This document shows, piece by piece, positions 35,754 to 60,922 of a stretch of DNA of 64,000 bases. Location: the sequence record NC_133255.1. One strand, 5' to 3'. Below the pieces are notes generated by a model. That model was not told where the DNA came from and searched no databases. It worked only from the letters and a program-made list of their open reading frames with translations. The translations under genes were made by a program, and so were the position numbers. Source of the DNA: Escherichia phage vB_EcoS-26175I. Each line of letters starts with the position of its first letter. Positions within the stretch are counted from its first letter, which is position 1.

Positions 35754-35945
35754 CTACAATTTTAAATAAGCCTATGATATTGCATTTAAATAAAAAATTT
35801 GCTTGCTTTTATTGGGAAATGTATGGTACTAGATAATCATTTTATATCGCGTACACGGGTGCGTGATTATACTATTTTTAGTAGAGGTTGGCAAATAAAA
35901 TTTTTTGACTCAGATCAATTTACAGAATGTTATAGTAAAATATTG

Positions 35946-35974
35946 TTGACATCCGCCTTCGAATGAGTTATAAT
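35946..35974 (+). promoter_or_regulatory. consensus sigma70 promoter (TTGACA-17-TATAAT) for nrdD
   Basis: ttgaca 35946-35951, tataat 35969-35974, RBS gaaggagag, ATG 36004. Confidence 0.7.
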
Positions 35975-36003: not shown

Positions 36004-37878
36004 ATGAATCGCAATGAAGAACTAAAGTATAAAGGAATGCAGTCCTTGATTCGAAACTGCAAAGAAATTATCGAAGGTTCAGCAGATGAAGAGCTGCTGT
36101 TTAATAATGCCAATAAGCCCTCAGAACGTTTCCCTACACAAAGGGATATGCTTGCAGGGGAATTGAGTAAATATCTGATTCTGGAAGAAATGCCAATCCA
36201 GATTCGAAATGCTCACATGATTGGTGATATTCACTTCCATGATGCTGATTACGCTGCGTTAGGTATGACTAACTGTTGCCTGGTTGCTTTGGAAGATATG
36301 TTGAAGAATGGTATGAAGGTTGGTAATGCTGAAATCAGTACACCAAACTCTATTACTACTGCGGCTGCTATCACAGCTCAGATTATCACTCAGGTTAGTT
36401 CACATCAATATGGTGGTACTTCTGTAGACCGATTAGATGAAGTACTGGCTCCTTATGTTCGTAAGTCTTATGATAAGAATCATGCGTTTGCAAAACGTTG
36501 GACTAAGGATGAAGCCAAAGCATCTGTAATGGCTACGGAAATGACTGAGAAAGAAGTTTACGATGCCTGTCAGGGCCTGGAGTATGAAATCAATACGATG
36601 TTCAACTCTAATGGTCAGAGTCCATTTATTACCTTTGGTTTTGGTCTAGGAACTTCCTGGGAAGCACGTCTTGTACAGAAAGCAATCTTAGAAGTGCGTA
36701 TGGATGGTTTGGGTATCAATAAACGTACAGCTATCTTCCCTAAACTGGTATTTGTTTTGCGTGATGGCGTAAACATGAAACCTGGTGATGTTAACTATGA
36801 TATCAAGAAGTTAGCTATGAAATGTACTGCCGAACGTATGTACCCCGACTATATCAGTTATGATAAGGTTGTAGAAGTTACTGGTGACTATAAAGTCTCT
36901 ATGGGTTGTCGTTCATTCCTGGCTGCTGCGGAAGATGGTGAAACTTCTGGTCGTAACAACTTAGGCGTTGTTTCCGTAAACCTTCCTCGAATCGCTATCG
37001 AAGCAGAAGGAAATATTGATCTATTCTTCGATCTGCTTGAGCTGCGTGTGGATACCGCGTTAAAAGCATTGGAGTGGAGGGTTGATCGCTTAAAATACAT
37101 TCAAGCTAAAGCTGCGCCCATCCTCTATATGTCAGGAGCCTTTGGATTACGTCTGGGACCCGATGAATATGTATTTGATCATTTCTACAAGCGTGCTTCT
37201 GTATCTCTAGGATATATTGGTTGCCACGAAATGTTGCAGCTCATGTTTGGTAAAGATGTAGATACAATGTCTGAGTCTTGTATCAAGTTCGTTCAACGTG
37301 TGCTACAATATATGCGTGATCGTGCTGATCAGAAGAAGGAAGAGACTCAGTTAGGTTATAGTCTGTATGCTACACCATCTGAATCTCTGTGTGATCGCTT
37401 CTGTCGTCTAGACCGTGAGTACTTCCCAGAGCATGAGGATATTCTGGCTAAAGGATACTACACTAACTCCCATCACCTTGATGTAGAACGTAAGGTTGCT
37501 CCAAATGTGAAATTTGATTATGAGTCTAACTTTACTCCTATTGCTTCTGGTGGGTGCATTTCCTACGTGGAATTACCTGACATGAAGAAATTCCCAGATG
37601 CCCTAGAATGGGTAATTAACTATGCTGCAAGTAAAGTTCACTACTTTGGTATTAATACTCCAGTTGATTCTTGTGGTGAGTGTGGATTCTTAGGCGAAAC
37701 AATTGCTTCTGAAGATGGATTTAAATGCCCAATTTGTGGCAACCATGATCCTGAGACTCTTGAGGTAACACGTCGTGTTTGTGGGTACCTTGGTAATCCA
37801 GGTGCACGCCCATTTAACCCAGGTAAACAGCATGAGGTTATGGGACGAATCAAGCATGCAGATGTAAGAGCTAAATAA
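36004..37878 (+). CDS. nrdD: anaerobic ribonucleoside-triphosphate reductase (class III)
   Basis: 624 aa; C-terminal Zn ribbon CGECG...CPICG and glycyl radical motif RRVCGYLG; consensus promoter and RBS upstream. Confidence 0.9.
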   Translation: MNRNEELKYKGMQSLIRNCKEIIEGSADEELLFNNANKPSERFPTQRDMLAGELSKYLILEEMPIQIRNAHMIGDIHFHDADYAALGMTNCCLVALEDMLKNGMKVGNAEISTPNSITTAAAITAQIITQVSSHQYGGTSVDRLDEVLAPYVRKSYDKNHAFAKRWTKDEAKASVMATEMTEKEVYDACQGLEYEINTMFNSNGQSPFITFGFGLGTSWEARLVQKAILEVRMDGLGINKRTAIFPKLVFVLRDGVNMKPGDVNYDIKKLAMKCTAERMYPDYISYDKVVEVTGDYKVSMGCRSFLAAAEDGETSGRNNLGVVSVNLPRIAIEAEGNIDLFFDLLELRVDTALKALEWRVDRLKYIQAKAAPILYMSGAFGLRLGPDEYVFDHFYKRASVSLGYIGCHEMLQLMFGKDVDTMSESCIKFVQRVLQYMRDRADQKKEETQLGYSLYATPSESLCDRFCRLDREYFPEHEDILAKGYYTNSHHLDVERKVAPNVKFDYESNFTPIASGGCISYVELPDMKKFPDALEWVINYAASKVHYFGINTPVDSCGECGFLGETIASEDGFKCPICGNHDPETLEVTRRVCGYLGNPGARPFNPGKQHEVMGRIKHADVRAK

Positions 37879-37910
37879 TGAATCAGCCAGGTCGCTAGTC
37901 GATCTGGCTT
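37874..37910 (+). terminator. rho-independent terminator after nrdD
   Basis: inverted repeat gccag...ctggc followed by ttttatttt. Confidence 0.5.
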
Positions 37911-37977: not shown

Positions 37978-38196
37978 ATGGCAAAAGTACCACAAGAATT
38001 TACGGATGGAATTAAGGCAGATCTAGATGTAATGCTAATGGCCCAATGGGAGTCTGGCTTCCGAGATGGAATTGATTGTTGTGTGGCCGTGCTCGATACT
38101 ATTAGTTGGCAGCTTATTCAATCTGGAAATGATGCAGAAGGCAACCTTCTAGCTAACCTTTCTAAACAAATTAGGGAAATGAAATGCGCAGATTAA
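37978..38196 (+). CDS. hypothetical small protein
   Basis: SD GAGAGGAG before ATG 37978; promoter 37920-37948. Confidence 0.3.
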   Translation: MAKVPQEFTDGIKADLDVMLMAQWESGFRDGIDCCVAVLDTISWQLIQSGNDAEGNLLANLSKQIREMKCAD

Positions 38197-39035
38197 TTAT
38201 TGTTAGTGGTGCAGGTTTGAGTGTAGACAGTGGTGTTCGTGCTTTCCGTACTGATACTTCTAGTGGAAAATCTTTGTGGGATGAGTACGATCTAGAGGAA
38301 GTATGTAGCTTGCCTAACTTTGAAGCTGGCTTCCGTCGCTTCTGTGGTGAAGATGATCCTAACTACTTCAGTGCTCGTTTCCCTGGCATTGATGAAGATG
38401 GTAACGATCTGTATCTCAAGACTCATGAGTTCTACAACATGCGTCGTCAGGAATTACAGACTGTTGAGCCTAACATTGCCCATCTGCGAATTGCAGAATG
38501 GTTCCAGCGTTATGGTGCGGATAGCGTGAAGAACTTCACTACTAACGTTGATGACCTTCTGGAACGTGCTGGTATCCCTCGTGATGAAATCATCCATGCT
38601 CACGGATACTTGAAAGAGGTGATCTATCGTCGGGGTCGCAATCAAATCATCGAAGATGTTGGATACACTGCAATTGTTCCTGAAGATTACGAATGGGTAA
38701 AACCAAACGTGGTGTTCTTTGGTGAGACAGCTCCGTGGTACATGGGTCAAATCAACCTGTTTGATACTCTTACTAGCAATGACATGGTTATTGTGGTGGG
38801 TTGTAGTAACCAAGTTATCAACTTCAACTGGGAATTATTTCCTGCTGTATGTCGTGGAACTAAGATGATGGTTGTTAACCCACAAGTTCGTTATGACGAG
38901 CAGCTTGAGTATGAGAAACGTGGTGTTACTGTATGGCGTGCTGGAGCTGCCGAAGTTTTTGGTAACAAGCATTTCATTGATCAAGTTGAAGCCTTTATGG
39001 AAGGAACTATTTATGCACCAGAAAAACATAGGTGA
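38184..39035 (+). CDS. Sir2-family (sirtuin-like) NAD-dependent protein, no zinc-ribbon module
   Basis: GAGLSVDSGVRAFR (cf. GAGISxxSGIPxFR), TTNVDDL, HAHG, KPNVVFFGE, VIVVGCS; the four Zn-binding Cys are absent. Confidence 0.6.
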   Translation: MRRLIIVSGAGLSVDSGVRAFRTDTSSGKSLWDEYDLEEVCSLPNFEAGFRRFCGEDDPNYFSARFPGIDEDGNDLYLKTHEFYNMRRQELQTVEPNIAHLRIAEWFQRYGADSVKNFTTNVDDLLERAGIPRDEIIHAHGYLKEVIYRRGRNQIIEDVGYTAIVPEDYEWVKPNVVFFGETAPWYMGQINLFDTLTSNDMVIVVGCSNQVINFNWELFPAVCRGTKMMVVNPQVRYDEQLEYEKRGVTVWRAGAAEVFGNKHFIDQVEAFMEGTIYAPEKHR

Positions 39036-39175
39036 TCTTTTAGTATGGCCGGATGGTAGTTGGTGCTACCGTTTCGAATTTGCTACCGATGACTTCTCAT
39101 GGAAGAGTGATGATTTCTGCGTTATCTACGAAGATACAGCGGAATGGAAAGAATTCCTGATTAAGGAGGGAGAAT

Positions 39176-39361
39176 ATGGTGAAGAAGATTTTTAAGGGTA
39201 TCTGGAAAGGTCTAGTATGGTTTGTCAACCTAATTGGTATGATTACCATTTATTCTCTGTTCCTATCTGTTATGTGGGGTAAAGGTGAACTGAAGGTTCC
39301 GGTTCCTTTTACTAATGAAGTTAAAGTCTGGACGTGGGATGCTACTGGTGGAAATAAGTAA
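39176..39361 (+). CDS. small membrane protein
   Basis: 61 aa with one TM helix. Confidence 0.3.
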   Translation: MVKKIFKGIWKGLVWFVNLIGMITIYSLFLSVMWGKGELKVPVPFTNEVKVWTWDATGGNK

Positions 39362-39854
39362 TACTCCTGTGATTTTCCTGGATATTGATGGGGTGCTCAA
39401 TTCGAGCATCTCTCACCATCATGCTCCAGATAATGAAAAGCTGTTCTTTGGCAGTGATTGGGTTTATAAACCGTTACTCCAGGCTTTTCAGAACTTCCTT
39501 AAACCTTCTCCAATAATGATTGTTGGGGTATCTTCATGGTTTTCTGTACGAAACGAGATGGAGAACGTTCAGATTATGACCGGGCTCGGTTTGATCGATC
39601 GTTTTCTTGGTACAACAGATTTTACTGGTGGCGGTTTATCTCGTGGTAATTCTGTCTTACGTTTCGTAGAAAAACATAAGCTCAAGCATTGGTGCGTCCT
39701 AGATGATGCTGGTGCTATGATGTATCAATTTCCTACTGTTATTGTAAATGGCAGGACTGGAATAAACTTTCAAGATTTAAATGCTATCAGCTATACGCTG
39801 GAATTTAGTCCAGATCTTGAAATGTGTAAGGCTCTTCAGAAACTCAAGGTGTAG
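39339..39854 (+). CDS. HAD-superfamily phosphatase (possible nucleotidase)
   Basis: HAD motif I FLDIDGVLN near N-terminus. Confidence 0.5.
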   Translation: MLLVEISNTPVIFLDIDGVLNSSISHHHAPDNEKLFFGSDWVYKPLLQAFQNFLKPSPIMIVGVSSWFSVRNEMENVQIMTGLGLIDRFLGTTDFTGGGLSRGNSVLRFVEKHKLKHWCVLDDAGAMMYQFPTVIVNGRTGINFQDLNAISYTLEFSPDLEMCKALQKLKV

Positions 39855-39856
39855 AT

Positions 39857-40285
39857 ATGTTCGATAATCTTTTCATGAAAGAGGTAAACCCTATGCTTCT
39901 CAACTTCTGGCGTTCTCTCCCTAATGGTATGTACAATGAAACCATCAATCTGCTTAAGATTTGGTGTGAGAATAACGATATCTTCTTATCCTTTAAAGGC
40001 CCACTAGAGGAAGCTCCGTGTATTGGAGTTAGTGTGGATTTAGGGGAGGGAGTAGAAGAAATTGTGGACTGGAAAGAACTCGATGAAATGGGTCTGGTTT
40101 TTGCCTTGAACCATAAGCTGTTTATGCCTGCAAATCACCGTCTTATTGTAAATTATCGCACTGGTGAAGCTCCTGCTTTCCAGGTAAATGAACGTGAGGG
40201 CTGGTCATATTCGCCCGAGGAAGTAAATGAGGGGATTCAGAAACTTCGTCGTTTCGGGTATATGATCCCAGGTTTAACTGCTTAA
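39857..40285 (+). CDS. acidic protein, tandem paralog A
   Basis: shares W-EL--MGL--ALN...TGE-P...PGL pattern with next ORF. Confidence 0.4.
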   Translation: MFDNLFMKEVNPMLLNFWRSLPNGMYNETINLLKIWCENNDIFLSFKGPLEEAPCIGVSVDLGEGVEEIVDWKELDEMGLVFALNHKLFMPANHRLIVNYRTGEAPAFQVNEREGWSYSPEEVNEGIQKLRRFGYMIPGLTA

Positions 40286-40294
40286 GGAGGCAGA

Positions 40295-40690
40295 ATGGAA
40301 CAAGTATTTTGGCGTCAGATAGATCCTAGTTTGGTAGAGCGTGCTGAAGGGCTCCTTGCACGTTGGTTGGGGGTTGACAAGGTTAGTGTAACATTTCCGT
40401 TTACTTCTGTAACAGACCCTAGTGTAGGTGTCTTTGTGGACGAAGATGAAGATGATGGTTGGGAAGCTGACTGGAATGAATTGTCCAGCATGGGCTTGAT
40501 TGTTGCCCTCAACTTCTCTATATTCCATCCACGTGGCTTAGCCATTACACGTGACCCCGAGACTGGTGAATCCCCTTATCTTTTGCAAGTAGAAGATGAT
40601 ATTTGGGAGTACACCGAAGATATTCTCGAAGAAGCTAAAGGTCAATTAAATCTCATTGGAATCTATGTCCCAGGCCTAAATGTTGATTGA
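40295..40690 (+). CDS. acidic protein, tandem paralog B
   Basis: paralogous to 39857-40285; terminator-like hairpin downstream. Confidence 0.4.
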   Translation: MEQVFWRQIDPSLVERAEGLLARWLGVDKVSVTFPFTSVTDPSVGVFVDEDEDDGWEADWNELSSMGLIVALNFSIFHPRGLAITRDPETGESPYLLQVEDDIWEYTEDILEEAKGQLNLIGIYVPGLNVD

Positions 40691-40781
40691 TTTTCATTAG
40701 TTCAATCCTGATTACCGAGTCATTTTGGCTCGGTTTTCTCCGTGCTCAAAGACACTGATAGCACCTTCGGAAAAATTTTAC

Positions 40782-40810
40782 TTGCAGGATGCTCAAAATC
40801 TTGGTATAAT
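40782..40810 (+). promoter_or_regulatory. sigma70 promoter with extended -10 (TGgTATAAT)
   Basis: ttgcag 40782-40787, tataat 40805-40810; followed by ~590-nt leader. Confidence 0.55.
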
Positions 40811-41402
40811 ATTTATATTGAATTGAGAGACATTAGTAAAAATTGATTTTGCTAATTTTTCTTAATGAAGCTGACAATGGATTTACGGCGAGAGCGATCG
40901 ATGACCCGTAAATAGCTGCATAAGGTACGTTGCTAGAGCTTTATGAAAAAGTTTTTCTTGTTTACAATCCGCAATACGGAACAGTTAGGCTGCCCCATTA
41001 AAGGTTGTTTTAACTATTACTAGTGTTTATACTGCATTAGTTAATTATCAATTAAGTGATCTGCGTACCCTGAATTCGGAAAGGTAAATCCAAACCGTGC
41101 ATATTTAGCTCGTTATATAGGCAGAGCTTTATATGGGGGTGCGAACGAAAAGAGCAGCGAATGGTGACACGTCCAGTAGCCACCTACCAATAGGATAGTG
41201 AGGGCAATCAGAATCGGCTTAGCGGCCAATGACCTAGGTTCTGATCTGGATAAGAGTTAAGAGAGCGCAGCACTGAGGTATGATAACTTATTCATACTGC
41301 TTGATGATGATTAATGTTTGTGTAAATGGTAGTAATAGTTGTTCTATTCTTTTGAATAGTCCTAAAGAAAGATATCCGAATAACCAACATAGGAGTATTG
41401 TT

Positions 41403-44192
41403 GTGTTCTCAATCCTACAAGGTCACGCAGGATTTTCCAGAGATAAAGCCACTGGCATCTGGAAAGAGATCAAAGTGGAAGATTACACCTTTGCAAAGCG
41501 ATTCTCTAAAGAGCATCCAGAAGGTAAACCAGCTTCCATGCCCTTCAAATTTGACGTACTTGAAGAACTTGACCCGCAAAACCTTGCTGAAATGTTACCT
41601 ATCATGCGTCGTCTTACCAAAGATCCGCATATTGTAGCTATTCGTGGTAAATGTCTAGCTCCAAAAGATAATGTGCGTCGTACCAGAGGAAACTTTAACG
41701 TATCCAATCCTAGTCATATTATTGCTATGGACGTGGATGGTATTGTAGATACTGGTGGCTATGACAAGTTTAATCTTGTTGGCATGGCACGTCATATTAT
41801 TAAGATGTTGAATAGTATTAGTGAGGATATGTTTCCTCTTGATGCAGGGTTTATTGCCCATGCATCGTCTTCGGCTGGATTAAAACCAGGTATCCGAATG
41901 CACTTAATGCTAGAATCTAATGTCAAGGTAACGCAGGGACAGTTAAAGTTCTTATTTACATCTATCAATGATAGTAGTAAGCAAAAGTACGGCTTTGATA
42001 TTGCTGACTTAGCTTATTATTCTTCTGTTCAGCTTCACTATTTCGCAGATCCCTTATTTGATGATGGTATAGTCGATCCGTTTAAAGCGGAGAATAAACC
42101 ACGTCTTGTGTATGTTAAGGGTTCGAAGGTGAATCTACCTAATAACCTAGTTGACTTTGAGACAACTAGAGGTGAGTTTAAAGAAGAATTCTATTCCTTA
42201 CTTGACCAAATTAAAGGCAAGAAGGCTGCATCTGATAAAGTGGAAGAAACCATCAGCGAACTAGAAGAAGCTGAGGATGGAGTGTACCTGCGTATTATCC
42301 CAAAGCTGTATCACAGAGCATTGGAAGATGGTGTGGACTTCGCATGGTTAGAAAAGGAGATTAAACCAGCCTTATCTGAGTATATTGCAACTAAGGATAA
42401 TAGTCGTAACATTCAAGATTACTTTAATAACGGTCGTAAGCAGGCTCTCAAAGCCTTTGTAAATAACTCCAAACGTGAGATTCCACCAAACTTAAAAGGT
42501 GTACCATTAAAACGTCTAGATACAGATTCACCACCAGAAGTTCCATACCTGAAAATTAACATTGTACCACCAAAAGGACATTTAACATTTGTTAAGGCAA
42601 GTCTTGGTACGGGTAAAACTACAGCAGTAACTAAGTGGCTAGATGCAGGTGTTCTTCCAGGAAACTTTATTGCAATCACGAATACTAGGGCACTTGTATC
42701 TTCAAACGCGAAGAAATTCAGTGCTGGCCAGTATGATAAGTCAGTTGATATGCTAAACTTCAAACGTGGTGCTATTGATCGTATGTCTTCAACTATTCAC
42801 TCTATCCATAAGTTCAAGAGCTTTGTGGGTCAGATTGATACGATCTTTATTGATGAATGTGATGCAGTAATGAATGATCTGTTATTCGCTCCGGTTGTTA
42901 AAAACCGTCGTGAATGTATTCAGGTTCTTCGTGATATCCTTATTACTGCTAAAACTGTTATCTTATCTGATGGTGATATCAGTGCAGAAACGATTGAAGC
43001 CTATGGTTCTTTGATTGATTTTGATAAACCAGTTGCATTCTATAATCATCACCGTAAAATGCTGGCGAAAGCTCACGCTTATGAATTCCCTGACGAATCC
43101 AGTATTTGGGTTGCACTTCAAACATCTCTAGAGATGGGGGAGAAGTCAATCCTAGTATCTGACTGTGGACCGGATGAACTGAATGAAAAGGGAATGGCGT
43201 TACGTCGTAATACTGGTGCGTTAGTTAAAGAAATTCACTCAAACTCTACATCTGATGTAGATATCCGACGTATTCTGGATTATACAACTAATGAGCTAAT
43301 TGATCAACAGATTGATTGTTTGTTATGTAGTCCATCTGTAACGAGTGGTGTTGACTTTAACTATTTTGATAACGTATTCGTAATCACTAGAACCTCAAAC
43401 CAAGCGCCAAACATGCGTTTCCAAGCAATCAGGCGCGACCGTGGTGCTCAGAATATCTATTACTTCATTGATAAGTCTACAAGTGGATTTTCTGCGGGTT
43501 CCGAGCAGTATAATATTGATGAAGGTTGGATTGAGTTAGCCCAACAACTGTACGCACGTCGTCGTGAGCTGGAATCTAAAAACTATACTAGTACTTTGCG
43601 TTATTATCTACTTGATCAGGGTGCAACTATTGATATTTTCAGTGAAAGCTGGGGAACTATCGAAGGTGCAGGCAAAGAGTATACAGAAGAGCGAATCAAA
43701 GCTATTTTGTACTCAACTCCTGAATATTGCGCACCACGTCATGCAGATGCCTATGAAGCCAAGATACTTCTGGTTCGCTATTATCATCTGGATTCTATTA
43801 AAGATGTAACAGTGGAACACGTTGAACAGTATATCAAGGATAAACCGAATGATCGAGCTGCATTTTTCCATAAGATGCACGAGATGTTCTGGGAAGATAT
43901 TAAAAAGTGTTCAAACGTAACAATCAAACCGTTTATCGAAGCTCTTAAGAATAAGAAGAAGGATTTCTTCCTTAAGACAGGTCAGAGCGCTAACCCAAAA
44001 TATGCTCGTATGTATCTTGGCATGATGGGTATCGGTAAAGATCTGGATACGGAAAAGATTGTGGACTGGTACAGAACTTACTGTAAGATCGAATGTATGC
44101 CGATTCCAGTTAAGTTTATGACAGATGAAGAACGTCAGATGCATGAGGAAGCTCTTGCTGAATTGGGAGCTAGAAATGACAGTGAAGAATAA
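41403..44192 (+). CDS. large P-loop NTPase/helicase-like replication protein
   Basis: Walker A ASLGTGKTTAV and Walker B IFIDECD; probable GTG start at 41403 after SD AGGAG (longest ORF begins 41280). Confidence 0.55.
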   Translation: MFSILQGHAGFSRDKATGIWKEIKVEDYTFAKRFSKEHPEGKPASMPFKFDVLEELDPQNLAEMLPIMRRLTKDPHIVAIRGKCLAPKDNVRRTRGNFNVSNPSHIIAMDVDGIVDTGGYDKFNLVGMARHIIKMLNSISEDMFPLDAGFIAHASSSAGLKPGIRMHLMLESNVKVTQGQLKFLFTSINDSSKQKYGFDIADLAYYSSVQLHYFADPLFDDGIVDPFKAENKPRLVYVKGSKVNLPNNLVDFETTRGEFKEEFYSLLDQIKGKKAASDKVEETISELEEAEDGVYLRIIPKLYHRALEDGVDFAWLEKEIKPALSEYIATKDNSRNIQDYFNNGRKQALKAFVNNSKREIPPNLKGVPLKRLDTDSPPEVPYLKINIVPPKGHLTFVKASLGTGKTTAVTKWLDAGVLPGNFIAITNTRALVSSNAKKFSAGQYDKSVDMLNFKRGAIDRMSSTIHSIHKFKSFVGQIDTIFIDECDAVMNDLLFAPVVKNRRECIQVLRDILITAKTVILSDGDISAETIEAYGSLIDFDKPVAFYNHHRKMLAKAHAYEFPDESSIWVALQTSLEMGEKSILVSDCGPDELNEKGMALRRNTGALVKEIHSNSTSDVDIRRILDYTTNELIDQQIDCLLCSPSVTSGVDFNYFDNVFVITRTSNQAPNMRFQAIRRDRGAQNIYYFIDKSTSGFSAGSEQYNIDEGWIELAQQLYARRRELESKNYTSTLRYYLLDQGATIDIFSESWGTIEGAGKEYTEERIKAILYSTPEYCAPRHADAYEAKILLVRYYHLDSIKDVTVEHVEQYIKDKPNDRAAFFHKMHEMFWEDIKKCSNVTIKPFIEALKNKKKDFFLKTGQSANPKYARMYLGMMGIGKDLDTEKIVDWYRTYCKIECMPIPVKFMTDEERQMHEEALAELGARNDSEE

Positions 44193-58125: not shown

Positions 58126-59103
58126 ATGAGAATACTATTTAGTGCTGATCATCATATCAAATTAGGACAAGATAAAGTTCCAAAGGAATGGCAAAAGCGT
58201 CGCTTCCTGATGCTAGGAGAACGGTTAAATGACATATTCCATAATCATAACTGTGATCTGCATATTGCTGGTGGTGATATTCTTGATGTTGCCGACCCAT
58301 CGTCGGAAGAAATAGAACTTCTTGAACAGTTCATGTCAAGACTTGACCATCCAGGCAAGATCTTCACTGGTAACCATGAAATGTTAACTAAAACTATTTC
58401 ATGTCTATATCATTATGCAGGAGTTATTAATAAAGTAACAAACGGAAATTGGGAAGTCATTACTAAACCATATCGTTCTCCTGAATTTGATATTATCCCT
58501 TATGATGAAATCCACAAACCAAAGTGGAAACCATCTGAATCAAAATTATGTTTCACGCATGTTCGTGGTGAAATCCCCCCACATGTAAAACCAGAGATTG
58601 ATCTAACTAGGTATAACTGTTATGACACTGTAGTTGCTGGCGATTTACATTCTTATACTAATAGTCAAACTGTTGGTTCTACTAGACTTCTTTATCCAGG
58701 ATCTCCATTAACTACATCGTTCCACAGAGAACGCACAAAAGGTACAAATGGTTGTTTTATCATTGATACCGACACATTAAAAGTAGAGTGGATTGAACTT
58801 GGTGACTTACCACAACTGATTCGTAAAACAATCGGAGTTGGTGAGGAAATGGAGCCTAGTGACTATGACCGTGTAATTTATGAAGTCACTGGTGACGTCG
58901 TTCAGTTAAAGTCTATTAAAGATTCCGATCTCTTAGATAAAAAGATTAACCATCGAGTTACTAAAGATGCTAAGCTAAATCTTGTTGATCTTGATATGTT
59001 AGGCGAGCTTGAGCTTTACTTCCGTGAAGTTGAAAAGCTGTCTCAAGGCGACATTGATAGAATCTTGGCTAGAGCTGCTAAATATGTCAAAGATTATAAT
59101 TAA
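58126..59103 (+). CDS. sbcD: SbcD/Mre11-like nuclease
   Basis: phosphoesterase motif MRILFSADHH...GGDILD...GNHE. Confidence 0.75.
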   Translation: MRILFSADHHIKLGQDKVPKEWQKRRFLMLGERLNDIFHNHNCDLHIAGGDILDVADPSSEEIELLEQFMSRLDHPGKIFTGNHEMLTKTISCLYHYAGVINKVTNGNWEVITKPYRSPEFDIIPYDEIHKPKWKPSESKLCFTHVRGEIPPHVKPEIDLTRYNCYDTVVAGDLHSYTNSQTVGSTRLLYPGSPLTTSFHRERTKGTNGCFIIDTDTLKVEWIELGDLPQLIRKTIGVGEEMEPSDYDRVIYEVTGDVVQLKSIKDSDLLDKKINHRVTKDAKLNLVDLDMLGELELYFREVEKLSQGDIDRILARAAKYVKDYN

Positions 59104-60922
59104 GACACTAAAATTCAGCAACGTTATGTCTTACGGTAAGGATATCGTAATTCATTTCGATAAGAATCCAGTTACTCAGTTAATCGGAGGAAACGGTCTA
59201 GGGAAGTCCACTATTGCTACTGTTATTGAGGAATTGTTTTATAACAAGAACTCACGTGGTATCAAGAAAGACGCCTTATTCTCTTGGGGTTCTCCGAAGA
59301 AAGAGTACGATATGCACGCTTACTTCTCGAAAGATGAAGATGAGTATGAGTTGCATAAAGTAGTTAAATCAACTGCTAAGGTTACACTGATTAAGAATGG
59401 AGAAGATATCAGTGGACACACAGCAACCCAAACATATAAGATGATTGAAGAGATTATGGGTGGTGACTTCCAAACATTCACTAAACTGATCTATCAATCT
59501 GTAGGTTCCAATCTAGACTTCCTCAAAGCAACTGATGCGACACGTAAAGCTTTTCTTGTTAATCTGTTTAATCAGGAACAGTATAAAGAGATGTCAGAAA
59601 CTATTAAGGCCGATCGTAAAGAAGTGGCAAGTACATTAAGTAACTTGCAAGGCCAGATGGCCGTAATTACGAAAATTCTTAATGGAAAGAATAACTTGGG
59701 AACCTTACAAGAACCAGTCGAAGTTCCAGAGTTTAATGAAGAACCGTTATCACAAGAACTTACTGAATCGAAAATTAAGGCGGCATTAGCCAAGTCACAA
59801 GAGGCTAATATTACTAAACTCCGTAATTTGGACAAAGCTGTACAAGTTGCCGAACAATCTTTCGAGCCTTTCAAAAATTTCCCTGCGCCCACTGACCAAT
59901 CTGAAGAGATCTCAAGTGTTACGCGTGACCTAACGATTGTTACCTCACGTGCGGGAGAAGTCAAGAAACGTTATCAGAAGTTCAAGCAAGAGGCTTCAAA
60001 TACTGAATGTCCTACTTGTGGTACTCACCTTGATACAACTGCTGCTCAAAAAGCAATGGATATGGCTAGAACAGAGTATGATCCTCTGTTTAAAGAGAAA
60101 CAATCTCTTGAAGATACACTAGAGCAGTTGAAGAAAGAACAAGTCGAGTACACTGCGTATACTAGAGCTAAAGATGCTTTAGATAAGGCAGTAGCAGCTA
60201 GAGACGAGTTCAAAAATTCAATGAGTGATGCTTCTTTCGAAGAACTCAATGTGCAAATCCTACAGGTGCAAATCCGACAATTAGAACAGGAAATCGCTGA
60301 TGGACGTTCTAAAGTTGCAATTGCCAAAGAGCATAATGCAAATGTCGAGTTAGCCAATGCAAAATATAAAGCGAAACTAGAACAGATTGAGAAAGCTGAG
60401 GCAGAAATGTCTGAGATAACATCCAAACTGGATGGAGTATCAGAAGCTGTTGCTGATCTTGATATTCTGATCGCTGCATTGAAAAATCTGGTAGGATATA
60501 AACTAGAGCATAGTGTGAAAGTATTTGAGGAATTGATTAATAAATATCTTTCTATTATGACTGGTGGTAAGTTCGCACTTGGATTTGAGCTTGATGAAAC
60601 TAAATTACAAGTAGTAATCTTCAATGATGGAAACCGTACCAGTATGGAGAACTGCTCTACTGGTCAGCAAAGTAGAATTAACCTAGCAACTCTGTTAGCA
60701 ATTCGAATGCTGTTAACATCTATTAGTAAAGTTAATATTAATCTTCTGTTCCTTGACGAAGTTATTAGCTTTATTGATACGAAAGGACTTGATACTCTCG
60801 TTGAATTATTAAATGAAGAGGATAGTCTGAATTCTATCATTGTTTCTCATGGGCACTCTCACCCGCTGGCCCATAAGATTACAGTTAAAAAAGATGCAGA
60901 AGGATTCTCTTATTTAGAATGA
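59084..60922 (+). CDS. sbcC: SbcC/Rad50-like ATPase
   Basis: Walker A GGNGLGKST, long coiled-coil middle, C-terminal signature/Walker B LLFLDEVISFID. Confidence 0.75.
   Translation: MSKIIIKTLKFSNVMSYGKDIVIHFDKNPVTQLIGGNGLGKSTIATVIEELFYNKNSRGIKKDALFSWGSPKKEYDMHAYFSKDEDEYELHKVVKSTAKVTLIKNGEDISGHTATQTYKMIEEIMGGDFQTFTKLIYQSVGSNLDFLKATDATRKAFLVNLFNQEQYKEMSETIKADRKEVASTLSNLQGQMAVITKILNGKNNLGTLQEPVEVPEFNEEPLSQELTESKIKAALAKSQEANITKLRNLDKAVQVAEQSFEPFKNFPAPTDQSEEISSVTRDLTIVTSRAGEVKKRYQKFKQEASNTECPTCGTHLDTTAAQKAMDMARTEYDPLFKEKQSLEDTLEQLKKEQVEYTAYTRAKDALDKAVAARDEFKNSMSDASFEELNVQILQVQIRQLEQEIADGRSKVAIAKEHNANVELANAKYKAKLEQIEKAEAEMSEITSKLDGVSEAVADLDILIAALKNLVGYKLEHSVKVFEELINKYLSIMTGGKFALGFELDETKLQVVIFNDGNRTSMENCSTGQQSRINLATLLAIRMLLTSISKVNINLLFLDEVISFIDTKGLDTLVELLNEEDSLNSIIVSHGHSHPLAHKITVKKDAEGFSYLE

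What the first reader, a model, noticed from the sequence alone, without database searches (positions are those of the whole stretch)
39857..40690. Tandem pair of divergent paralogous acidic proteins
The two adjacent ORFs (142 and 131 aa) share a conserved core (W-EL--MGL--ALN...TGE-P...PGL-) but have diverged elsewhere. This pattern of duplication followed by diversification is often seen in genes under host-interaction selection. They sit in a cluster with Sir2-like and HAD phosphatase genes.
Basis: seen in the sequence. Interest (0 to 1): 0.5.

Follow-up and report, generated by a model that had tools for sequence, protein, structure and literature searches.

The report
Old tandem DUF7415 paralogues in T5-like phage
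Two neighbouring small acidic early genes of a T5-like phage are real, ancient duplicates from a widespread phage-only protein family (DUF7415) of unknown function; both are kept by purifying selection, so the pair is a catalogued but unstudied family, not a new kind of system.

Summary
ORF A (39857-40285, 142 aa, pI 4.7) and ORF B (40295-40690, 131 aa, pI 4.1) align without gaps over 124 residues (31% identity, E=2e-19). The window is an Epseptimavirus, 100% identical over this locus to known phages. A and B are the orthologues of T5.106 and T5.107, and both belong to Pfam DUF7415 / PHROG 2502.

The duplication is old. It is shared with Klebsiella Sugarlandvirus, while Pectobacterium phage My1 has a single copy. 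Nearly all of about 520 T5-like genomes keep both copies.

dN/dS is 0.05-0.2, so selection is purifying, although A and B evolve faster than nrdD, primase and HAD. B keeps the family signature (DWNELS..GLI..N..HP.GLA..RDP.TG.SP..W.Y). A has lost much of it.

Elsewhere the domain stands alone or is fused to nucleic-acid or nucleotide enzymes, and it sits beside P2-type replication initiator genes, nrdD/nrdG, or late genes L/X. Function is untested. My best inference is a non-catalytic binding or docking module.

The parts
39857..40285 (+). ORF A, 142 aa, pI 4.67; orthologue of T5.106 and bas26_0048. This is the DUF7415 paralogue whose family signature has decayed (FMPANHRLIVNYRTGEAP).
   Evidence: PF24187, 125.5 bits; phrog_2502, E=7e-60; AF2 pLDDT 86.7
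40295..40690 (+). ORF B, 131 aa, pI 4.05; orthologue of T5.107 and bas26_0047. This is the DUF7415 paralogue that keeps the canonical signature (DWNELSSMGLIVALNFSIFHPRGLAITRDPETGESP...WEY).
   Evidence: PF24187, 98 bits; 73.8 bits against my own model of canonical domains; AF2 pLDDT 91.5
39899..40051 (+). A residues 15-65: N-terminal beta-alpha-beta-beta unit, probably a degenerate DUF7415 copy.
   Evidence: Pfam 73.4 bits when this half is scanned alone; AF2 topology; hhalign of diverse N-halves against the canonical domain gives probability 60%, E=8.8e-5; not detected by my canonical HMM
40061..40192 (+). A residues 69-112: C-terminal DUF7415 unit with a decayed signature.
   Evidence: Pfam 56.5 bits; 30.4 bits against my canonical HMM
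40301..40447 (+). B residues 3-51: N-terminal unit. Its second half plus the linker (residues about 27-58) is the variable, indel-rich segment; in this allele it carries the acidic run DEDEDD.
   Evidence: Pfam 44.6 bits; allele alignment
40469..40591 (+). B residues 59-99: canonical DUF7415 core.
   Evidence: Pfam 57.4 bits; hhalign of C-halves against canonical domains gives probability 99.8%
40284..40290 (+). Shine-Dalgarno sequence AAGGAGG for B, overlapping the stop codon of A.
   Evidence: sequence read
40714..40740 (+). Intrinsic terminator hairpin (9-bp stem, 3-nt loop) followed by UUUUCU. It ends the early transcription unit after B.
   Evidence: -15.4 kcal/mol, z = -2.98; T5 has an annotated terminator at the equivalent place
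39315..39854 (+). Upstream neighbour: HAD_SAK_2-type HAD phosphatase (T5.105 orthologue). Its stop codon lies 2 nt before the start of A. Relatives annotate the start at 39348.
38184..39035 (+). Sir2-family protein (T5.102 orthologue), same strand, context.
36004..37878 (+). nrdD (anaerobic ribonucleotide reductase). It heads this rightward early gene block. A consensus promoter lies at 35946-35974 and a terminator at 37885-37909.

Best explanation
SHOWN. A and B are genuine protein-coding early genes of an Epseptimavirus (T5-like phage) and are the orthologues of T5.106 and T5.107. They are tandem paralogues in the phage-specific family DUF7415. The duplication predates the split between Markadamsvirinae and Sugarlandvirus, and both copies are held by purifying selection. 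Each protein folds confidently in silico into two beta-alpha-beta-beta units plus a C-terminal helix. No solved structure has a similar fold. B keeps the family's near-invariant signature; A and its orthologues have lost it. INFERRED (mechanism). DUF7415 is a small non-catalytic binding or docking module. In other phages the same ~55-residue domain stands alone or is attached to varied nucleic-acid or nucleotide enzymes and zinc ribbons: ASCH/DUF3850, an Rv2179c-like 3'-5' exoribonuclease, a MazG-like dATP/dGTP pyrophosphohydrolase, thymidylate kinase and Lar. It also sits beside the P2/186 replication initiator A, or between nrdD and nrdG. That is the behaviour of a module that brings different activities to one strongly conserved partner, or that oligomerises them. 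In T5-like phages I propose that the pair acts early, as stand-alone double modules, in the phage's DNA/nucleotide-metabolism programme. B would engage the conserved partner through the signature loop (HP-GLA / RDP-TG-SP / W-Y). A would be a diverged partner subunit or a copy with changed specificity. The partner's identity and any A-B contact are unknown.
For: Paralogy. Identity of the phage and of the T5 orthologues. Family membership. Age of the duplication and A/B orthology in Sugarlandvirus; single B-like copy in My1. Purifying selection. Asymmetric loss of the signature. Confident models with the same topology. Only DUF7415 proteins match among viral models. No PDB relative by sequence or fold. 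Fusion partners. Gene neighbourhoods. High sequence conservation of the core across phages of many Gammaproteobacteria (60-70% identity), which implies a conserved partner. Operon structure (tight spacing with HAD, Shine-Dalgarno for B, terminator after B).
Against: No experiment or paper bears on function. No docking partner is identified. I could not model an A-B complex. The B allele can be exchanged without changing A (L091), which argues against a tightly co-evolved A-B interface. In 41 of 80 IMG/VR loci the canonical domain lies in a late structural operon, between head-completion gene L and tail gene X. That has no link to nucleotide metabolism, and it fits a free-standing accessory ('moron', an add-on gene) or anti-defence protein as well as it fits a docking module. 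The near-invariant polar residues (N, H, S, D) could also mark a ligand-binding or catalytic site. Many early phage genes sit near replication or nucleotide genes simply because early operons are built that way. The N-terminal 'second copy' is supported by Pfam and, moderately, by hhalign, but not by my canonical HMM.
Confidence: 0.4

Rival explanations
1. Anti-defence or host-takeover inhibitors. A and B are small, strongly acidic proteins that sterically or electrostatically block a host DNA-binding or nucleic-acid-targeting protein, in the way acidic anti-CRISPR, anti-restriction or DNA-mimic proteins do. Duplication would give two specificities.
Confidence: 0.25
2. Small-ligand (nucleotide) binding domain. 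DUF7415 binds a nucleotide or nucleotide-derived signal through the Gly-rich RDP-TG-S-G loop. It would act as a regulatory domain when fused to enzymes, and as a sensor or sponge when free.
For: Near-invariant polar and Gly residues lie in loops (N, H-P, D-P-x-T-G-x-S-x-G, D-G-x-W-x-Y). Fusion partners act on nucleotides (dATP/dGTP pyrophosphohydrolase, thymidylate kinase). The gene is sandwiched between nrdD and nrdG in a Klebsiella T4-like phage. It lies in the nrdD-Sir2-HAD block in T5-like phages and next to NUDIX in Slopekvirus. Strong conservation across hosts fits an invariant small ligand.
Against: No detectable similarity to any known nucleotide-binding fold. The proteins are acidic. 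No pocket analysis was possible. The late-operon L/X location has no metabolic logic. A has lost the loop residues yet is under stronger constraint than B.
Confidence: 0.15
3. An oligomeric mini-enzyme. The conserved Asn/His/Ser/Asp residues form an active site at a subunit interface. B would be the catalytic paralogue and A a pseudo-enzyme partner.
For: Invariant N, H, G, S and near-invariant D and Y in a 55-residue domain. A has lost His (to Met) and the GLA strand while B keeps them, a pattern seen in enzyme/pseudo-enzyme pairs. Some databases name homologues 'exonuclease'.
Against: The 'exonuclease' label most likely spread from fusion proteins in which a separate Rv2179c-like DEDD exonuclease domain carries the activity. 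The domain is very small. No similarity to any enzyme fold. No Pfam or NCBIfam enzyme model matches.
Confidence: 0.07
4. One reading: a recent duplication driven apart by positive (arms-race) selection at a host-interaction surface.
For: A and B evolve faster than the neighbouring core genes. B has a variable, indel-rich segment and allele exchange.
Against: The duplication is shared by Markadamsvirinae and Sugarlandvirus, so it is old. dN/dS is well below 1 for whole genes and for every segment. Both copies are retained in essentially all T5-like genomes.
Confidence: 0.1

Closest known systems
T5.106 and T5.107 of Escherichia phage T5 (NC_005859), identical in role to bas26_0048/0047 of phage GreteKellenberger
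   Same: Direct orthologues. They lie at the same position after nrdD, Sir2 and HAD and before the terminator and the primase/origin-binding gene. Lengths match (142 and 130-131 aa). Protein identity to T5 is 73% for A and 68% for B, and A is 100% identical in GreteKellenberger.
   Different: Nothing structural differs. The B allele in this window carries an acidic DEDEDD insert region that T5.107 lacks. All of these genes are annotated as hypothetical.
Pfam DUF7415 (PF24187): canonical single-domain phage and prophage proteins, e.g. phiCTX orf7
   Same: B's C-terminal unit matches the canonical signature almost residue for residue (73.8 bits; hhalign probability 99.8%). Viral DUF7415 models have the same predicted fold.
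   Different: Canonical members are 60-95 aa with one domain. They occur mostly in P2-family temperate phages, between L and X or beside replication gene A. The T5-like proteins have an extra, degenerate N-terminal unit and a C-terminal helix with a PGL tail, and they come as a pair.
P2 Orf91 (ASCH/DUF3850 + DUF7415)
   Same: It carries the same DUF7415 core (54 bits). The T5 record itself notes that T5.106 is 'similar to ORF91'. It is an early-operon gene next to replication functions.
   Different: The N-terminal domain is an ASCH/DUF3850 PUA-like domain, not a second DUF7415 unit. It is a single copy. Its function is also unknown; one preprint calls it essential in passing.
AcrIC4 (PDB 8dfo chain M), anti-CRISPR against type I-C Cascade

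Membership tests
Pfam DUF7415 (PF24187) | Whole-protein score above the curated gathering threshold (27 bits) | tested here: met
   A scores 125.5 bits and B 98 bits. Each half scanned alone also passes: A_N 73.4, A_C 56.5, B_N 44.6, B_C 57.4 bits.
Pfam DUF7415 (PF24187) | Canonical signature IDWNELS..GLI.RIN.EILHPLGLA..RDP.TG.S.G....DG.W.Y in the core | tested here: met
   Met for B (73.8 bits against an HMM built only from single-domain members). Only partly met for A (30.4 bits; His to Met, GLA to NHR, RDP to VNY).
Pfam DUF7415 (PF24187) | Same predicted fold as other family members | tested here: met
   Foldseek against BFVD: the significant matches that carry a name are all DUF7415 proteins (several others are unnamed). 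TM-scores are up to 0.86/0.93 (normalised to query/target length). A and B models share one topology.
Pfam DUF7415 (PF24187): two copies per protein | The N-terminal half is homologous to the canonical domain | tested here: inconclusive
   For: the Pfam HMM, the same beta-alpha-beta-beta order, and hhalign probability 60%, E=8.8e-5, in register. Against: no BLAST signal, no hit from my canonical HMM, and hhalign probability 0.4% with the narrow alignment.
PHROG 2502 | Full-length profile match | tested here: met
   A E=7.2e-60 and B E=6.5e-57, both over the whole profile; the family has no known function.
AcrIC4-like anti-CRISPR | Sequence or significant fold similarity to AcrIC4 | tested here: inconclusive
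AcrIC4-like anti-CRISPR | Adjacent anti-CRISPR-associated (aca) HTH regulator gene | tested here: not met
   B is followed by a terminator and about 600-700 nt of non-coding DNA, then the primase. Upstream lie HAD and Sir2. No HTH gene is adjacent.
AcrIC4-like anti-CRISPR | Inhibition of a CRISPR-Cas effector | not testable with these tools
   Needs plaque assays or binding assays.
DNA-mimic anti-restriction proteins (Ocr/ArdA type) | Strongly negative protein | tested here: met
   B has net charge -20 and pI 4.05; A has -9 and pI 4.67. Part of B's charge is specific to this allele.
DNA-mimic anti-restriction proteins (Ocr/ArdA type) | Sequence or fold relation to a known DNA mimic; surface charge arranged like B-form DNA | tested here: not met
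Phage exonuclease (database label on some homologues) | A nuclease domain or catalytic motif | tested here: not met
   No nuclease family matches A or B. The label probably comes from fusion proteins in which a separate Rv2179c-like/RNase_T domain precedes DUF7415.

The most novel reading that the evidence does not exclude
DUF7415 is a structurally unprecedented, phage-restricted module that targets one highly conserved bacterial hub protein (for example a replisome, RNA-polymerase or nucleic-acid-surveillance component). Free copies such as T5.106/T5.107 would be inhibitors or hijackers of that hub, a new class of host-takeover or anti-defence factor. Fused copies would deliver nucleases, NTP pyrophosphatases and kinases to the same hub. 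The T5 pair would be a canonical binder (B) plus a re-targeted paralogue (A).
Probability: 0.15. Interest if true: 0.65.

Novelty: new member of a known kind. Interest (0 to 1): 0.33.

Why it matters
As it stands, this is a well-conserved pair of uncharacterised early genes that is already catalogued (Pfam DUF7415, PHROG 2502, T5.106/T5.107). The tandem duplication itself is ordinary.

Four things make the family a reasonable experimental target:
- It is widespread in phages and prophages, and I saw it nowhere outside them. It occurs in T5-like, T4-like and P2/186/phiCTX-like phages of many Gammaproteobacteria.
- It has an unusually conserved 55-residue core.
- No solved structure resembles it.
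- The library search returned no paper naming DUF7415, T5.106 or T5.107, and P2 Orf91 is listed with unknown function.

It also keeps turning up fused or adjacent to replication and nucleotide enzymes. The T5-like pair offers a natural contrast between a copy that keeps the signature and a copy that lost it. That contrast could be used to find the domain's partner.

The work also exposes annotation errors ('exonuclease', 'tail tube protein', 'Sir2' for the HAD gene) that spread through databases.

Tried and rejected
- **A-B complex model.** I tried to predict A+B as one chain, because the two ORFs are in frame. So there is no model of an A-B complex.
- **AFDB fold search.** The afdb50 library was not available.
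- **Sequence searches for a characterised relative.** The PDB searches gave only a low-complexity LRR artefact for A's N-terminus and nothing for B or for the canonical profile. NCBIfam and PADLOC gave nothing for A or B.
- **Internal repeat by BLAST.** Comparing halves found nothing. A narrow hhalign comparison gave probability 0.4%. Only a broader profile gave 60%.
- **Word-indexed homologue search with A and B.** It returned only T5-like proteins. The exhaustive HMMER search was needed to reach the rest of the family.
- **Literature.** 'DUF7415', 'T5.106' and 'T5.107' gave zero papers. The P2 orf91 search gave only 'unknown' and an unsupported 'essential'. The T5 early-gene search found nothing relevant.
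- **Rfam on the long intergenic region after B.** No match.
- **An nrdD-specific role.** Considered and rejected. Only two lineages place DUF7415 near nrdD, while most canonical members lie next to P2-type genes L/X or A.
- **Gene-call artefact or pseudogene.** Rejected because of conservation, purifying selection and confident folds.

Full report
**What the window is.** The segment 39300-40800 is 100% identical to Escherichia phages vB_EcoS-26175II to V, and 97-98% identical to many Salmonella and Escherichia T5-like phages. ORF A is 100% identical in protein to bas26_0048 of phage GreteKellenberger (Demerecviridae, Markadamsvirinae, Epseptimavirus). In phage T5 the equivalent genes are T5.106 and T5.107. 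They lie in the early region after nrdD (T5.099), Sir2 (T5.102) and T5.105, and before an annotated terminator, a promoter and the 'replication origin binding'/primase gene T5.108.

**Checking the observation.** ORF A (39857-40285, 142 aa) and ORF B (40295-40690, 131 aa) are present as described.
- BLASTP gives 31% identity over 124 residues without a gap, E=2e-19.
- The proteins are acidic: pI 4.67 and 4.05, net charge -9 and -20.
- The neighbours are a Sir2-family protein and a HAD phosphatase of the HAD_SAK_2 type.
- A starts 2 nt after the HAD stop codon. B starts 9 nt after A, behind AAGGAGG.
- A 9-bp hairpin followed by a U-run lies 24 nt after B.

So the two genes close an early transcription unit.

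**Family.** Both proteins belong to Pfam DUF7415 (125.5 and 98 bits against a threshold of 27) and to PHROG 2502, which has no known function. NCBIfam, PADLOC and the PDB sequence search give nothing meaningful. No paper in the library mentions DUF7415, T5.106 or T5.107.

An exhaustive HMMER search of 1.84 billion representative proteins finds only 153 clusters at E<=1e-3. About twenty are two-unit proteins like A and B. The rest are mostly small proteins of 60-200 aa that match only profile positions 56-110, which is the C-terminal core. A consensus built from them reads IDWNxLSxxGLIxRINxEILHPLGLAxxRDPETGxSxGALVAxDGxWEY. N, H, G, L, G and S are invariant. Family members are mostly acidic, with a median pI of 5.0.

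**Architecture.** AlphaFold2 models are confident: A has pLDDT 86.7 and pTM 0.82, and B has pLDDT 91.5 and pTM 0.85. Both show the same order of elements: strand-helix-strand-strand, then strand-helix(kinked)-strand-strand, then a C-terminal helix.

Pfam's 53-position model matches each half of each protein above threshold when the halves are scanned alone. That suggests four copies of one unit across the two genes. I tested this independently, with mixed results:
- BLAST between halves finds nothing.
- An HMM built only from single-domain members scores B's C-half at 73.8 bits and A's C-half at 30.4 bits. It does not see the N-halves.
- hhalign with a narrow N-half alignment also sees nothing.
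- hhalign with 27 diverse two-unit proteins aligns the N-half to the canonical domain in register over 49 columns, with probability 60% and E=8.8e-5.

The internal duplication is therefore likely but not settled.

**History of the pair.**
- Klebsiella Sugarlandvirus phiKp_27 has the same arrangement: nrdD, a small ORF, Sir2, two DUF7415 genes of 133 and 131 aa, a gap, then the primase.
- Its first copy resembles A (CLMRESY in place of the HP-GLA motif, and an LRRFGFQVEGLT tail). Its second copy resembles B (FHPANFA...GISPG...PWTY).
- Pectobacterium phage My1 (Mccorquodalevirinae) has HAD, an unrelated 90-aa ORF and a single B-like two-unit protein.
- So the duplication predates the Markadamsvirinae/Sugarlandvirus split, and B is the conservative copy. 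Among more distant two-unit proteins, some A-like sequences still keep the signature (P0050), while others have lost it to various degrees (P0061, P0062, P0066, P0132).
- tblastn finds 1062 places in 547 phage records, about two per T5-like genome. Neither copy is generally lost.

**Selection.** I compared the window with 16 IMG/VR T5-like genomes and T5. "Near" means pairs with dS 0.02-0.5 and "far" means pairs with dS of 0.5 or more; dN/dS is pairwise Nei-Gojobori.

| Gene | Protein identity, Epseptimavirus vs Tequintavirus | dN/dS, near / far pairs |
|---|---|---|
| NrdD | 97% | 0.02 / 0.08 |
| Primase | 95% | 0.03 / 0.06 |
| HAD | 90% | 0.07 / 0.07 |
| A | 75% | 0.055 / 0.11 |
| B | 71% | 0.10 / 0.20 |
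| Sir2 | 51% | 0.10 / 0.21 |

No sub-segment of A or B exceeds 0.23. Variation in B is concentrated in residues about 27-58, with indels and charge changes: DEDEDD here, SGYAGE in T5, KIYVPDNEDIEY in others. The canonical core is invariant. One genome (L091) combines a 98%-identical A with a 69%-identical B, so the B allele was exchanged by recombination.

Overall the pair is constrained but evolves faster than the core genes. With this crude method there is no sign of positive selection.

**What the domain does elsewhere.** Fusions found:
- ASCH/DUF3850 + DUF7415, which is P2 Orf91 and its relatives.
- DUF5405 + DUF7415, 157 aa, immediately upstream of the replication initiator gene A in 186-like phages.
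- Rv2179c-like 3'-5' exoribonuclease + DUF7415.
- MazG-like dATP/dGTP pyrophosphohydrolase + DUF7415, and DUF7415 + thymidylate kinase.
- DUF7415 + the Lar restriction-alleviation zinc ribbon.
- Single cases with PGDYG, DUF551 and the ClpX zinc finger.

Neighbourhoods found:
- Of 80 IMG/VR loci with a canonical copy, 41 lie between head-completion gene L and tail gene X, as does phiCTX orf7. Another 20 lie within 1.5 kb of a P2/186-type gene A. The remaining loci show neither pattern (17 with none of the reference genes nearby, 2 near TraR only).
- In E. coli and Salmonella 186-like prophages the order is TraR, then ASCH or a 132-aa ORF, then DUF7415, gene A and DinI.
- In a Shewanella P2-like prophage it closes the early operon after gene A, a methylase and a PapB-like gene.
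- In a Klebsiella T4-like phage a 77-aa copy is wedged between nrdD and nrdG.
- In Slopekvirus-type phages it lies one or two genes after a NUDIX gene; ENC19 also has a dNMP kinase and Acb1 about 3-4 kb upstream and a GmrSD_N-like gene two genes downstream.
- In an Aeromonas T4-like phage it directly follows RNA ligase 1, four genes after another HAD_SAK_2 gene.

P2 Orf91 is listed with unknown function. One preprint calls it essential in passing.

**Interpretation.** The identity of the genes, their paralogy, their age, the constraint on them and their family membership are shown. The mechanism is inferred.

The domain is tiny and highly conserved. It is promiscuous in its fusion partners, which are nearly all nucleic-acid or nucleotide enzymes or zinc ribbons. 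It is also often free-standing. The simplest reading is a non-catalytic binding, docking or oligomerisation module that recognises one conserved partner.

In T5-like phages, B would carry that activity. A would be a diverged partner or a re-targeted copy. I give this reading about 0.4.

The main rival (0.25) is a free-standing acidic inhibitor of a host defence or DNA-binding protein. It is supported by the charge, the variable add-on positions in other phages, the Lar fusion and the weak AcrIC4 resemblance. It is weakened by the low dN/dS, the cross-host conservation and the enzyme fusions.

A ligand-binding role (0.15) and an enzymatic role (0.07) remain possible because of the invariant polar and glycine-rich loops.

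**Verdict.** This is a real, ancient, constrained tandem pair from an already catalogued phage family whose function has not been studied. As a duplication it is ordinary. As a family it is moderately interesting, because it is broad, has no structural relative and recurs beside replication and nucleotide functions.

Noticed in passing
window 40691-41405: A long non-coding gap of about 600-700 nt lies between B and the primase/origin-binding gene. It starts with the terminator hairpin (40714-40734). An extended -10 promoter-like site (TGGTATAAT) follows it, read by eye near 40810-40830. No Rfam family matches. The gap is conserved in position in T5 (58927-59545), Sugarlandvirus and My1. It could hold a long 5' leader, a small RNA or replication signals.
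   Followed up: partly
window 41280-44192: The mechanical ORF of 970 aa begins upstream of the start annotated in relatives (the GreteKellenberger primase is 929 aa and T5.108 is 928 aa). The real start is probably near 41403-41406.
   Followed up: no
L091 (IMGVR_UViG_2974607751_000001), A/B locus: Mosaic locus: A is 98% identical to the window but B only 69%. This B allele carries a 5-residue longer variable loop (KIYVPDNEDIEY), so B has been exchanged by recombination independently of A.
   Followed up: partly
database names of homologues and the T5 record: Likely annotation errors. A-type proteins are named 'exonuclease' or 'Phage exonuclease (ACLAME 70)', and B-type proteins 'tail tube protein'. 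The HAD gene T5.105 (and phrog_18062) is labelled 'Sir2 (NAD-dependent deacetylase)'. T5.097 (53 aa) is labelled 'tail length tape measure protein'. The 'exonuclease' label probably spread from Rv2179c-exonuclease + DUF7415 fusion proteins.
   Followed up: partly
window 35846-35974 and the GC-skew switch near 35-36 kb: A perfect sigma-70 consensus promoter (TTGACA-17-TATAAT, 35946-35974) drives nrdD, and a divergent 11/12 promoter sits on the minus strand (35894-35866). GC skew changes sign here (negative before about 36 kb, positive after), which matches the switch in transcription direction.
   Followed up: no
window 38184-39035 (Sir2) versus flanks: The phage Sir2 protein is by far the most divergent gene of the block: 51% protein identity between Epseptimavirus and Tequintavirus, against 90-97% for nrdD, HAD and primase. 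Its dN/dS is about 0.1-0.2. It scores well below the NCBIfam cut-offs for CobB-type deacylases, so its substrate is probably different.
   Followed up: no
window about 39019-39195 and 39176-39361: Two further small ORFs lie between Sir2 and HAD. One is a very acidic ORF of about 58 aa (MHQKNIGDLLVWPDGSW...EEDF). The other is a 61-aa ORF with a hydrophobic stretch (phrog_11166). Both have unknown function. GreteKellenberger carries about 500 nt of extra small ORFs between nrdD and Sir2 that this window lacks.
   Followed up: no
L110 (Aeromonas phage avDM12-TAAL) 3829-6234 and window 39315-40690: A HAD_SAK_2 phosphatase and DUF7415 co-occur within a few genes in two unrelated phage groups: adjacent in T5-like phages, and four genes apart in an Aeromonas T4-like phage, where RNA ligase 1 lies in between. 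The old T5 notes also link T5.105 and T5.107 to the nearby Aeh1 ORFs 303 and 299. This may be a functional link to RNA or nucleotide end-processing.
   Followed up: partly
L006 (Klebsiella phage vB_Kpn_K65_evo1) 3983-4216: A 77-aa DUF7415 gene overlaps both the end of nrdD and the start of nrdG. It is inserted exactly between the anaerobic ribonucleotide reductase and its activase.
   Followed up: partly
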